Positions 51,409-53,888 of a DNA stretch of 64,000 nucleotides are shown one piece after another. The translations under genes were made by a program, and so were the position numbers. How positions within the stretch are numbered: the first letter of the stretch is position 1; each line of letters starts with the position of its first letter. This DNA comes from the human T2T-CHM13v2.0 reference genome, Homo sapiens. Below the pieces are notes generated by a model. The model had not been told where the DNA came from. It was given only the letters and a program-made list of their open reading frames with translations, and did not search any database. The DNA lies in NCBI RefSeq assembly GCF_009914755.1, contig NC_060930.1, one strand, 5' to 3'.

Positions 51409-51699
51409 GTGCCTTTGATAATTTTATAACATTTATTATTGGGAAACAACTGGAGCAAAGAAGGCCTGTACTCCAACACAGGTTCATGCACCCTACCATG
51501 CGAGCGCCACCTGGACTGGCTGGAGATGGGATCTGTGCACTGCTGAGGCCTTGTACTGGCTAGCCAGGATCTGAGGGAGCCAATTAGCGGGTGCCCCTGG
51601 AGGAGGTGGAGCTTACAGAAGGAACTAACCTGGCACCATGGGCCAATCTAGAGCAGTCTTGTCCTGTCCCCAGTCCACAAGGGATTCTCTCTAATTTCA

Positions 51700-52019
<320 letters not shown>

Positions 52020-52089
52020 CAGATCCCAGTCTGTTTGCAGGCAGTGGCACCCAGCCTGGTTGCAACCCTGTGCGGGGTGACACGGCTCT

Positions 52090-52551
52090 ATGGGAAGTGT
52101 GTCCATCCCGGAAAGGGACTCCTTTTGCATACTTGCCTCACTGGTGCAGGTTTAGGCACATTCTGAAACCATCAGTGCTTTACTTGGTGGCTGGTCACCT
52201 GGAAAAGATATTTGGTAAGTGTCCTGGTGTCTTTACCACTGCGCTACACTTTTGACTCCCCTGGCTCACCCTAAACCACCCGCCTGAAACCTAAGGCAGA
52301 ATCTAGTGTCCTGCAGGCCAGCATCCCAGTGACATCTTTCCCCTCTCCCCCCAATCCCCTCCCAGCCTTGCCCCATTTGGTAAAACTTCAACCTTCCTTT
52401 CTACACAGGCTCAAGCAGAGTCTTCCTCCTGGTGTTCCAGAAGGAGTTCAAGGTCCTGCTCCATATGGGACAGCTAGATTCTGAGGGCAATGTTGAGATC
52501 CTCATCTCCAGAAGGTGCTGGTGCCAGAAATATGACAAAAGGCTGATTGAC
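52090..52551 (+). pseudogene. Unprocessed KHDC3L(FILIA)/OOEP-like KH-domain pseudogene: exon 1 52090-52214, intron 52215-52408, truncated exon 2 52409-52551
   Basis: Exon 1 ends LPHW...LKPSVLYLVAGHLEKIF-G|GTAAGT; polypyrimidine acceptor at 52407-52408, phase 1; exon 2 [40 protein letters not shown] has 12/40 identities, ungapped, to recalled KHDC3L exon 2; 1-nt frameshift after the ATG; cut by Alus. Confidence 0.75.
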
Positions 52552-53888
52552 GGGCCAGGCGCGGTGGCTCACGCCTGTATTCCCAGCACTTTGGGAGGCC
52601 AAGGCGGGTGGATCATGAGGTCAAGAGTTCGAGACCATCCTGGCCAATATGGTGAAACCCTGTCTCTACTAAAAATACAAAAAATTAGCTGGGCGTGGTG
52701 GCACGCATCTGTAGTCCCAACTACTTGGGAGGCTGAGGCAGGAGAATTGCTTGAACCGGGAGGAGGAGGTTGCAGTGAGCAGAGATCGTGCCACTGCTCT
52801 CCAGCCTGGGCGGCAGACTGAGTGAGATTCCGTCTAAAAAAAAAGAGGCCTGGTGTGGCGGCTCAGGCCTGTAATCCTAGCACTTTGGGAGGCTGAGGCA
52901 GGTGGATTGCCTGAGGTCAAGAGGTCAGGACCAGCCTGTCCAACATGGTGAAACCCCATCTCTACTAAAAATGCAAAAATTAGCCAGATGTGGTGGCACA
53001 TGCTTGTAATCCCAGCTACTTCGGAGGCTGAGGCAGGAGAATCGCTTGAACCCAGAGTGTGGAAGTTGCAGTGAACCAAGATCATGCCACTTCACTCCAA
53101 CCTGGGCGAAAGAGCAAAACTTCATCTCAAAAAAAGAAAAGTATTTAAAAAAAAAAAAAACTAGCCAGGCTTTGTAGCATGTGCCTGTTGCCCCTTCTAA
53201 TTGGAAGGCTGAGGTGGGAAGATCACTTGAGCTTGGGAGGTTAAGGCTGCAGTGAGCAGTGGTTGCACCACCTCACTCCAACCTGGGGTCAGAAGGAGAC
53301 CCTATCTCAAAAAAAACAACTTTGTAAACTGTGATCCACACCTCAGTGCAGTGGGATAAAACTGTCCAGTAGCCTTGGCCTCCGAGGCCCTGTCTGAATC
53401 CTCCTTTTTTGCACCTGTAGCTAAAGGGCAGCAAGTGTTTTCTGTACTCTATATTCACTTTTAGACAAGTCACTTTTAGAGACTTGTTTAAAGATTCAAA
53501 ATGAGTTATAATAAAAAATAAATGTAAAATATACCTAGCAATTGGTATCGATTGACAAGAAAGCTTTCTTTGCTTGTTCCCACATGAAGAAAAAAGGTGA
53601 AGAATTACAAAAGGTTGGTTCAGCTTTTCAATTTTTTTGTGTTAAGTGGGTGTAGCTAGGATAATTAATGTCCCAGGGAACTTTTGTAAATAAGGAAGAA
53701 CATTCCTGTTTATTCTTTCATTAATGCTAGTTTTGAAAAAATAGGCTCTATAAATTAAGTTTTCATGTGTTGAAACATTGACAAATTGATTCCATTCTCC
53801 TTAACTGTTAGTTAAAAAGAACAAGTCTGGTCGGGCACGGTGGCTCACACCTGTAATTCAAGACTGGGAAGTGGAGGCAGGCGGATCA

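What the first reader, a model, noticed from the sequence alone, without database searches (positions are those of the whole stretch)
52090..53522. KHDC3L/FILIA-like gene with intact splice sites, disabled by a 1-nt insertion and an Alu pile-up
Deleting one T from the T4 run at 52123-52126 restores [42 protein letters not shown], ending at a perfect GTAAGT donor. KHDC3L exon 1 as recalled also ends EKIF-G. After a 194-nt intron, exon 2 is stop-free and shares G,Q,L,H,L,D,G,E,I,L,R,Q (12/40, no gaps) with KHDC3L GRGGERIPHVQGMSQILIHVNRLDPNGEAEILVFGRPSYQ. It stops at Alus (52552-53318) with no TSD, and AATAAA signals follow at 53510 and 53517. Low identity plus intact structure points to an old distinct paralog lost relatively recently, in primates given the Alu involvement.
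Basis: partly seen in the sequence, partly recalled or inferred. Interest (0 to 1): 0.85.

Follow-up and report, generated by a model that had tools for sequence, protein, structure and literature searches.

The report
Dead fifth KHDC/OOEP-family gene in human
This stretch is the broken human remnant of an unnamed fifth branch of the oocyte KH-like gene family (KHDC1, DPPA5, KHDC3L, OOEP) that is still intact in elephants, carnivores and bats; in humans it has no start codon, Alu elements sit in both surviving exons, its end is missing, and one exon is reused by a non-coding RNA.

Summary
The family resemblance is real. Both exons match Pfam MOEP19 (PF16005) separately and in the right order. 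Intron 1 sits at the family's phase-1 (I/L)FG|GT junction.

- It is not KHDC3L-like. Predicted proteins from elephant, manatee, seven carnivores and five bats are 45-60% identical to it, against 30% for human KHDC3L. In a tree they form a fifth clade that holds the human sequence, with support 100/99.
- There is no 1-nt insertion. The T4 run encodes the conserved Pro-Phe in the domain frame, and that frame stays open upstream. The ATG at 52090 is out of frame and matches no orthologue.

The real lesions are:
- an Alu in exon 1 (51712-52019) with an exact 14-nt target-site duplication;
- AAG where bats have ATG (51679-51681), and no in-frame Met anywhere in exon 1;
- an Alu block without duplication that cuts exon 2 at 52552;
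- the tail of exon 2 and all of exon 3 not found.

No other copy was found in the genome. This is an unannotated unitary pseudogene. When it died is not settled.

The parts
51679..51711 (+). 5' piece of coding exon 1. Its first codon is AAG, where bat orthologues have the initiator ATG. An in-frame TAG lies at 51649-51651.
   Evidence: Human [10 protein letters not shown] aligns without gaps to bat M-GFSLPSDPS.
51698..51711 (+). First copy of the 14-nt target-site duplication CAGATCCCAGTCTG. The second copy is at 52020-52033.
   Evidence: longest exact shared word across the two junctions; control.
51712..52019 (+). Full-length Alu with A-rich tail, inserted in exon 1 about 11 codons after the start position.
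   Evidence: 7.5% non-CpG divergence from the majority consensus of the window's Alus.
52034..52214 (+). 3' piece of exon 1 in the domain frame. It ends ..EKIF + G (phase 1) and holds no Met.
   Evidence: tblastn of P0120 covers 52103-52216, 60.5% over 38 aa.
52090..52155 (+). It is out of frame with the domain and spurious.
   Evidence: 0 of 5 orthologue N-termini match this frame.
52215..52408 (+). Intron 1, 194 nt, with a GTAAGT donor and a pyrimidine tract followed by AG.
   Evidence: Same phase and position as in all six human paralogues. KHDC3L intron 1 is 196 nt.
52409..52551 (+). The first 143 nt of exon 2 (180 nt in OOEP, DPPA5 and KHDC3L). It is open and aligns without gaps to the orthologues. 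Its acceptor is reused by the RefSeq KHDC1-AS1 exon 52409-52514.
   Evidence: hub annotation table for KHDC1-AS1.
52552..53318 (+). Alu block that cuts exon 2: Alu A 52553-52838, Alu B 52847-53130, and a right arm only (Alu C) 53152-53309. There is no duplication round the block or any part of it.
   Evidence: (5.9%, 9.9%, 22.1% non-CpG divergence).
53510..53522 (+). Two overlapping AATAAA signals. They cannot be assigned to the relic, because exon 3 was not found.
52056..52198 (-). RefSeq C6orf147 lncRNA exon, antisense to the 3' piece of exon 1.
   Evidence: Hub annotation table only.

Best explanation
This is a unitary pseudogene: the human remnant of an unnamed fifth lineage of the eutherian KHDC1/DPPA5/KHDC3L/OOEP (MOEP19, KH-like) family. 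The lineage is intact as predicted proteins of about 170-190 aa in Afrotheria, Carnivora and Chiroptera.

Shown. Exon 1 (51679-52214) and the first 143 nt of exon 2 (52409-52551) survive, with intact intron-1 splice sites. Once the exon-1 Alu and one copy of its duplication are left out, they form one open frame of 128 codons (stop-to-stop, from 51652).

The gene cannot make the protein, for four reasons:
1. There is no in-frame Met in exon 1, and AAG stands where bats have ATG.
2. An Alu splits exon 1.
3. An Alu block cuts exon 2 at codon 48-49, and the last roughly 12 codons of exon 2 plus exon 3 (about 55 codons) are not detectable.
4. 8 of 27 columns conserved in intact orthologues are changed.

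Inferred. The 3' part was lost by a deletion tied to the Alu block. The ancestral start was ATG at 51679. The loss happened in the primate lineage.

What remains acts only as RNA. The old exon-2 acceptor now serves the lncRNA KHDC1-AS1, and exon 1 is overlapped antisense by C6orf147.
For: - Pfam PF16005 matches both exon pieces in the right order.
- The exon-1 end, its phase, and the G|GC split codon are as in all six human paralogues.
- blastp of the frameshift-bridged 52090 reading against 150 library representatives found six proteins at 49-59% identity (E down to 2e-26); the next tier was about 32%.
- Source names for these proteins cover elephant, manatee, seal, foxes, cats, hyena, meerkat and bats. 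All carry PF16005.
- With the Alu left out, the reading aligns to bat P0156 from residue 2 to 120 (45%, E 2e-26), to manatee P0152 (54% over 110, E 1e-32) and to elephant P0120 (58% over 84).
- The duplication is an exact 14-mer.
- In the careful tree of 51 rows, five clades each have bootstrap support of 99 or more. The fifth clade plus the relic has 100/99. The relic groups with Laurasiatheria against Afrotheria (86/96), as in the species tree. The quick tree of 95 rows gives 99.
- The two best matches of bat P0156 in the whole human genome are this locus, and no better copy appeared.
- The human sequence keeps 19 of 27 conserved columns. Intact orthologues keep 25-27 of 27-30.
- The elephant orthologue model has a beta-alpha-alpha-beta-beta-alpha core with pLDDT 81-97. 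Its best PDB match is human OOEP (TM 0.84, rmsd 1.3 A over 83 columns), followed by Filia-N and classical type I KH domains.
Against: - Each human exon piece alone is below Pfam's 30-bit cut-off (15.5 and 21.4 bits), and the genome-wide PF16005 scan did not list the locus.
- Start codons differ among the orthologues: bats, afrotherians and carnivores start at different places, and carnivores read the N-terminal stretch in another frame. ATG-to-AAG is therefore an inference.
- The orthologues are automatic gene predictions. No expression or synteny data were seen.
- The relic's end branch (0.72) is long, but intact lineages also evolve fast (paths about 0.45-0.48), so branch length does not date the loss.
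- An open 119-codon frame fits poorly with very old decay: in my rough simulation its probability is 0.03-0.06 at 6-7.5% neutral divergence.
- Alu C is 22% diverged. If it marks the original break, the loss would be old.
- Absence of exon 3 rests on protein-level searches only. The genome search with P0168 had no positive control.
Confidence: 0.88

Rival explanations
1. One reading: a KHDC3L/FILIA-like paralogue that starts at ATG 52090 and was disabled by one extra T in the T4 run, plus the Alu pile-up.
For: Removing one T joins the ATG frame to the domain frame. Among human paralogues KHDC3L is the nearest (24/81 = 30%; 19/60 with z 12.4). The MG start lines up with the MGT of DPPA5 in the multiple alignment. 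Carnivores show that N-terminal frames can change in this lineage.
Against: Orthologues match the domain frame through and upstream of the T-run, where the conserved Pro-Phe is encoded by CCT TTT. That frame stays open for 60 more codons, across a perfect duplication. None of 5 orthologue N-termini match the ATG frame. The tree places the relic in the fifth clade, not with KHDC3L.
Confidence: 0.03
2. The locus still codes for something: a short peptide from the Met inside exon 2 that reads into the Alu, or a non-AUG-initiated product carried by a KHDC1-AS1 isoform.
For: An ORF from that Met through the Alu exists and is in the protein database as P0001, 118 aa. KHDC1-AS1 isoforms include 52409-52514 and longer versions (hub table). 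The frame is unusually well kept.
Against: Such a product would lack beta1, alpha1 and most of alpha3 of the KH-like fold (topology). No annotated + strand transcript contains exon 1 (hub table). 8 of 27 conserved columns are changed. P0001 is a purely mechanical ORF call.
Confidence: 0.04
3. A dead duplicate rather than a unitary pseudogene: a redundant copy decayed while a working copy of the same lineage persists in humans.
For: The cluster does hold such copies (KHDC1L; KHDC1P1 with an in-frame stop).
Against: The whole-genome search with bat P0156 gave only this locus as the top two hits. The other three were weaker matches to processed family copies or noise. The PF16005 genome scan lists only known members and processed copies.
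Confidence: 0.02
4. Chance resemblance in unconstrained DNA.
For: Each Pfam match is below the curated cut-off.
Against: The two matches are independent and collinear, with the family's exact intron position and phase. The E-values to orthologues are 1e-32 to 2e-26. 0 of 300 shuffles reach the observed score.
Confidence: 0.01

Closest known systems
KHDC3L (ECAT1/FILIA), chr6q13, 87 kb downstream
   Same: MOEP19 KH-like domain. Exon 1 ends ..EKIF|G in phase 1. Intron 1 is 196 nt against 194 nt. It is the nearest human paralogue (30%).
   Different: It forms a separate clade (100/97) that does not hold the relic. The relic is 45-60% identical to fifth-clade proteins instead. KHDC3L has a long repeat-rich exon 3; the fifth lineage has a short conserved C-terminus (..SLDEAMQSLEIG..).
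[quoted passage not shown]
   Same: It is the best solved-structure relative of the fifth lineage by sequence profile (E 1e-12) and by fold (TM 0.84, rmsd 1.3 A).
   Different: 24% identity to the relic and a separate clade (99/96). OOEP is intact and functional in humans.
DPPA5 (ESG1)
   Same: Same family and cluster. Several fifth-lineage proteins are auto-named 'DPPA5-like'. It is the weak sister in the quick tree (81).
   Different: The sister relation is unresolved in the careful tree. 20% identity to the relic.
KHDC1 / KHDC1L / KHDC1P1, the relic's physical neighbours
   Same: Same family, same three-exon plan, same window.
   Different: The most distant clade (14-16% identity; 100/100 split). 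Exon 2 is 183 nt rather than 180 nt. KHDC1P1 is a recent dead duplicate of KHDC1 (94% identical), not a unitary loss.
Human unitary pseudogenes broken by Alu events (for example CMAH; recalled, not checked here)
   Same: A gene intact in other mammals, single-copy, disabled in the human lineage with Alu involvement.
   Different: Here the date, the species range of the loss and any consequence are unknown.

Membership tests
MOEP19 / KH-like family (Pfam PF16005: KHDC1, DPPA5, KHDC3L, OOEP) | PF16005 match above the 30-bit gathering score | tested here: inconclusive
   The human exon pieces score 15.5 bits (profile 3-28) and 21.4 bits (profile 35-75). They are collinear, but each is below the cut-off, and the joined reading was not sent to Pfam. 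The orthologues P0120, P0156, P0155 and P0140 score 70-92 bits.
MOEP19 / KH-like family | Phase-1 intron directly after (I/L)FG, with the Gly codon split G|GC | tested here: met
   identical in the relic and in all six human paralogues.
MOEP19 / KH-like family | Location in the chr6q13 cluster | tested here: met
   Hub table: the relic lies between KHDC1 and DPPA5/KHDC3L/OOEP.
MOEP19 / KH-like family | Type I KH-like beta-alpha-alpha-beta-beta-alpha fold | tested here: met
   Tested on the elephant orthologue only. The core has pLDDT 81-97. The top PDB matches are OOEP, Filia-N, then PCBP2, hnRNP K and Nova KH domains. The human relic lacks most of the last helix and was not folded.
KHDC3L/FILIA orthology group | Groups with KHDC3L in a family tree | tested here: not met
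   The KHDC3L clade (97*; 100/97) excludes the relic.
Fifth lineage (unnamed; auto-named DPPA5-like, OOEP homolog or KHDC3-like in elephant, manatee, carnivores and bats) | One clade with these proteins, and reciprocal best match | tested here: met
   Clade support is 100/99 and 99. The best human-genome matches of bat P0156 are this locus. The relic's best matches among the 150 representatives are these proteins.
Fifth lineage | Shared synteny in species with the intact gene | not testable with these tools
   No mammalian genome other than human was at hand.
Unitary pseudogene | Disabling lesions, no working copy in the same genome, intact orthologues elsewhere | tested here: met
   Lesions. 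No other copy with query P0156. Intact predicted orthologues.

The most novel reading that the evidence does not exclude
The eutherian KH-like oocyte gene family has a fifth ancient member that the literature I could search never names. [quoted passage not shown] It may therefore be an unstudied lattice or SCMC-type component in those species. In the human lineage it kept an open frame until roughly the time Alus hit both exons. Its carcass now donates a splice acceptor and exon to KHDC1-AS1, a lncRNA reported to act in cis on KCNQ5.
Probability: 0.5. Interest if true: 0.6.

Novelty: new member of a known kind. Interest (0 to 1): 0.45.

Why it matters
KHDC3L and OOEP are maternal-effect genes. 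KHDC3L variants cause recurrent hydatidiform mole (abstracts of PMC11705469 and PMC5007383 in the listings). Both proteins sit in the subcortical maternal complex and cytoplasmic lattice (PDB titles).

A fifth, OOEP-like lineage that is intact in several mammalian orders but dead in humans changes the count of the ancestral family. It is also a species difference to bear in mind when oocyte biology is carried over from carnivore or bat models. It gives a worked example of a lncRNA exon (KHDC1-AS1) born from a dead coding exon. For annotation, it adds a missing unitary pseudogene and explains why this stretch looks protein-like.

Tried and rejected
- PDB phmmer with exon 2 alone: 0 hits at E up to 10.
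- The search for homologous proteins with exon 2, 'longer': only the window's own ORF P0001.
- blastn of the locus against the six paralogue loci: only a 22-nt match at the exon-1/intron junction of KHDC3L (86%) and Alus. This gave no help for exon 3.
- My idea that 53318-53354 is the missing exon-2 tail (143 + 37 = 180 nt): its score against the three 180-nt paralogue tails ranked 212 of 1544 windows, and it does not resemble the orthologues' tail. Rejected.
- Search for the exon-2 tail and exon 3: tblastn of 6 orthologues; a C-terminal HMM against 4196 ORFs of the window, best E 6 and none near the locus; whole-genome search with P0168, nothing, but without a positive control.
- First structure job with 14 sequences: pLDDT 42.9, unusable. 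It was repeated with 88 sequences.
- Dating from branch length: rejected, because intact lineages are nearly as fast.
- The genome search with an alignment is not accepted for this genome, so single proteins were used instead.
- Pierre et al. 2007 (Genomics 90:583), the family's founding paper, is not held. I saw it only as a citation.
- Literature searches found nothing on this relic or on a fifth lineage. Two returned no papers at all; the others returned papers, none of which describes either.
Full report
**1. What is in the sequence**

- an ATG at 52090;
- a T4 run at 52123-52126;
- an exon end ..ATATTTG followed by GTAAGT at 52215;
- a 194-nt intron with a pyrimidine tract and AG at 52407-52408;
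- an open frame from 52409 to an Alu at 52552;
- three Alu pieces reaching to 53318;
- AATAAA at 53510 and 53517.

The hub's RefSeq table shows no protein-coding or pseudogene model here. It shows the acceptor at 52409 used by KHDC1-AS1 exons (52409-52514 and longer forms). It also shows a C6orf147 exon (52056-52198, minus strand) antisense to the first exon.

**2. Is the family resemblance real?**

Yes.
- Pfam PF16005 (MOEP19, KH-like RNA-binding domain) matches the exon-1 piece (window:52121-52213; E 0.017, 15.5 bits, profile positions 3-28).
- It matches the exon-2 piece separately (window:52411-52551; E 2.4e-4, 21.4 bits, positions 35-75 of 86).
- As controls, the KHDC1 and KHDC1L exons of the same window score 33-54 bits, with the same break at position 28.
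- Each human piece is below the 30-bit curated cut-off. A genome-wide PF16005 scan (23 matches at E 0.001 or less) did not list this locus.
- All six human paralogues end exon 1 with (I/L)F + G in phase 1 before GTGAG and begin exon 2 with GC. These are KHDC1, KHDC1L, KHDC1P1, OOEP, DPPA5 and KHDC3L, the last four taken from the genome. The candidate does the same.
- Local alignments of the candidate reading give, against human KHDC3L, 19/60 identities without gaps (z 12.4, 0 of 300 shuffles); against OOEP 20/73 (z 10.5, 0 of 300); against DPPA5 15/61 (z 7.4, 0 of 300); against KHDC1 10/46 (z 3.3, 4 of 300).
- In a multiple alignment the identities are 30%, 24%, 20% and 14-16%. The four named lineages are 23-37% identical to each other. 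The candidate is therefore as far from its nearest human relative as those lineages are from one another.
- At DNA level nothing aligns to the paralogues except 22 nt across the exon-1/intron junction of KHDC3L.

**3. Its real relatives**

A profile of the six exon-2 translations (A1) was run over 1.84 billion representative proteins. It found 179 proteins at E 0.001 or less, of which 150 were returned.

Comparing the candidate with these 150 split them sharply:
- P0120, P0140, P0146, P0102, P0119 and P0117 are 49-59% identical, with E down to 2e-26.
- The next tier, which includes human KHDC3L, is about 32%.

Two word-index searches, with P0120 and then with an alignment of the group (A2), returned 12 and 24 proteins. 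All but two short fragments carry PF16005. The names given by the sources are inconsistent: 'DPPA5-like', 'oocyte-expressed protein homolog', 'KH domain-containing protein 3-like', 'uncharacterized', 'hypothetical'.

The named species are:
- Afrotheria: Loxodonta africana, Trichechus inunguis.
- Carnivora: Mirounga, Vulpes, Nyctereutes, Panthera, Prionailurus, Crocuta, Suricata.
- Chiroptera: Pteropus, Molossus, Phyllostomus, two Pipistrellus.

No primate, rodent, lagomorph or ungulate name appears. Pfam scores of four members are 70-92 bits.

**4. Trees**

Domain segments were cut with a local HMM. Of 172 proteins matched, 95 span both exons and 77 partial ones were left out.
- The quick tree shows a KHDC1 clade (100), a KHDC3L clade (97), a DPPA5 clade (99), an OOEP group (88), and a fifth clade of 17 proteins plus the human sequence (99).
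- For the careful tree I picked 51 rows: the relic, 16 fifth-clade rows and 8-9 rows from each other clade. All five groups have bootstrap support of 99 or more, and the fifth clade plus the relic has 100/99.
- Inside the fifth clade, the two afrotherians stand against bats, carnivores and human (86/96), as in the species tree. This argues for orthology.
- The order among OOEP, DPPA5, KHDC3L and the fifth clade is unresolved. The program also warns that long branches meet.

So 'KHDC3L-like' is not the right label.

**5. The frameshift is not there**

tblastn of the orthologues against the window matched the domain frame (frame B) not only after the T-run but through it. P0120 covers 52103-52216 and P0102 covers 52094-52216. 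CCT TTT of the T-run reads as the Pro-Phe that afrotherians and bats also have.

Upstream, frame B is open to 51995, which is the A-rich tail of an Alu. That Alu (51712-52019) is flanked by an exact 14-nt duplication, CAGATCCCAGTCTG (51698-51711 and 52020-52033). Both copies are read in the same frame.

Leaving out the Alu and one copy gives a single open frame of 128 codons, from 51652 to the exon-2 Alu. This reading aligns:
- to bat P0156 from its residue 2 to 120 (45%, 2 gap positions, E 2e-26);
- to manatee P0152 over 110 residues (54%, E 1e-32);
- to elephant P0120 over 84 residues without gaps (58%).

The bat initiator Met falls on human AAG (51679-51681). The next residues are GFSL.SDPS in both, and an unnamed genomic read-through (P0169) also shares the preceding SSLVL. 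An in-frame TAG lies at 51649-51651, and there is no Met in this frame anywhere in exon 1.

The frame of the 52090 ATG matches the N-terminus of none of 5 orthologues (z between -1.5 and 0.1). Elephant matches frame B (z 5.9, 0 of 300 shuffles). The three carnivores match the third frame (z 2.6-7.0).

The 21-codon ORF from 52090 is thus spurious. Its MG lining up with DPPA5's start was a coincidence that I first took as support.

**6. The lesions**

Shown:
- No initiator codon in frame.
- An Alu in exon 1.
- An Alu block cutting exon 2 after 143 of an expected 180 nt (exon 2 is 180 nt in OOEP, DPPA5 and KHDC3L), with no duplication round the block or any of its parts.
- The orthologues' exon-2 tail (..ILAAK.RRK..GG) and exon 3 (about 55 codons with a conserved ..SLDEAMQSLEIG.ETV..) not found. 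This was tested by tblastn, by a C-terminal HMM over 4196 ORFs of the whole window (best E 6, none near the locus), and by a genome search with P0168 (nothing, but no positive control).
- 8 of 27 columns that at least 15 of 16 intact orthologues share are changed in the human sequence (for example the invariant Gly after ..EILI. and the Y.KRAK motif). Each intact orthologue keeps 25-27 of 27-30 in a leave-one-out count.

Intact: the intron-1 donor and acceptor, and the frame itself.

Inferred: that AAG was once ATG, because starts differ among orders; and that the 3' part went in a deletion tied to the Alu block. The evidence for the latter is that the third Alu is a right arm only, starting in its A-rich linker, and that the block has no duplication.

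**7. No other human copy**

In the T2T genome, bat P0156 finds this locus as its two best matches: exon 2 (E 0.003, 49%) and exon 1 (E 0.015). The other three matches are weaker hits on processed family copies or noise.

**8. Fold of the intact lineage**

- With 14 sequences the model was useless (pLDDT 42.9).
- With 88 family sequences, the elephant protein's residues about 50-130 reach pLDDT 81-97, with beta-alpha-alpha-beta-beta-alpha order.
- Foldseek's best PDB matches are human OOEP in NLRP2-TLE6-OOEP and SCMC complexes (TM 0.82-0.84 on the target, rmsd 1.3-1.6 A). Then come mouse cytoplasmic-lattice chains and Filia-N, then classical type I KH domains of PCBP2, hnRNP K and Nova.
- The sequence profile also finds OOEP (E 1e-12) and Filia/KHDC3 (E 1e-7).

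**9. When did it die?**

This is not settled.

Divergence from a majority consensus of the window's own 62 near-full-length Alus (non-CpG sites) is:
- 7.5% for the exon-1 Alu;
- 5.9% for Alu A;
- 9.9% for Alu B;
- 22.1% for the right-arm fragment (Alu C).

The consensus is not subfamily-specific, so these values are overestimates. From recall, not from a tool, the first three lie in the AluS/Y range (tens of millions of years, anthropoid) and the last in the AluJ or monomer range (early primate or older).

I also ran a rough simulation with my own assumptions: a transition bias, one indel per eight substitutions, and a guessed indel length spectrum. It gives the chance that the 119-codon frame stays free of stops and frameshifts as 0.22 at 3% neutral divergence, 0.11 at 4.5%, 0.03-0.06 at 6-7.5% and 0.007 at 10%.

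Together these favour a loss of constraint within the primate lineage, not far from the time of the AluS-range insertions, and argue against decay since early eutherian times. This is inference only.

**10. What it does now**

Nothing as a protein, most likely. The old exon-2 acceptor, with a new donor at 52515 inside the exon, makes a KHDC1-AS1 exon (hub table). A FANTOM6 preprint reports that knock-down of KHDC1-AS1 changes KCNQ5 in cis in fibroblasts and iPS cells (10.1101/2022.02.16.480297; passages seen).

**11. Prior knowledge**

The papers I could search speak of a KHDC1/DPPA5/ECAT1/OOEP family, citing Pierre et al. 2007 (passages in PMC7226043, PMC2938380 and PMC5287230). None mentions a fifth lineage or a human relic here. 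The 2007 paper itself is not held, and GENCODE and Ensembl could not be consulted. 'Not described' therefore means only 'not found in these searches'.

**Verdict**

This is a real, ordinary kind of object, a unitary pseudogene. It belongs to a family of medical interest and reveals an unnamed fifth lineage. Its start codon, its frameshift and its KHDC3L label do not.

Noticed in passing
window 52035-52140 (third frame) against P0155, P0140, P0154: Carnivore orthologues read the stretch before the domain in a different frame from bats, afrotherians and the human relic (z 2.6-7.0 for the third frame), and they start at a different Met. The N-terminal extension of this lineage therefore changed frame in Carnivora.
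   Followed up: partly
P0119, P0167 (unnamed sources): Two genomic read-through ORFs share with the human exon 2 the states ..LLH.G.LDS.., where all named orthologues have ..LLQ.GEPDS... They may come from species nearer to human that have an open exon 2. Their origin was not sought.
   Followed up: no
L009 (G000:C6:74384501-74388500), KHDC1P1: KHDC1P1 exon 1 carries an in-frame stop at the second Trp of the PWW motif, and its exon 2 is open. It is 94% identical to KHDC1 over the aligned columns.
   Followed up: partly
window 52463-52821, protein P0001: The public protein collection holds a 118-aa mechanical ORF that starts at the Met inside the relic's exon 2 and runs into the Alu.
   Followed up: yes
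G000:C23:39191844-39192086 and seven other chromosomes: Intron-less PF16005 matches lie on chromosomes X, 15, 19, 1, 10, 12, 14 and 4. The X copy covers profile positions 5-85 in one open frame of 87 codons without stops. They look like processed copies of family members.
   Followed up: no
whole window: nhmmer with one Alu as query finds 87 Alu pieces in 64 kb, 62 of them near full-length. KHDC1L intron 1 is 948 nt against 168 nt in KHDC1.
   Followed up: partly
window 52215-52255 against P0169: The start of intron 1, read through in frame (human GKCPGVF..), resembles the read-through of an unnamed bat-like contig (GKCSGIF..). The first part of the intron is therefore conserved too.
   Followed up: no
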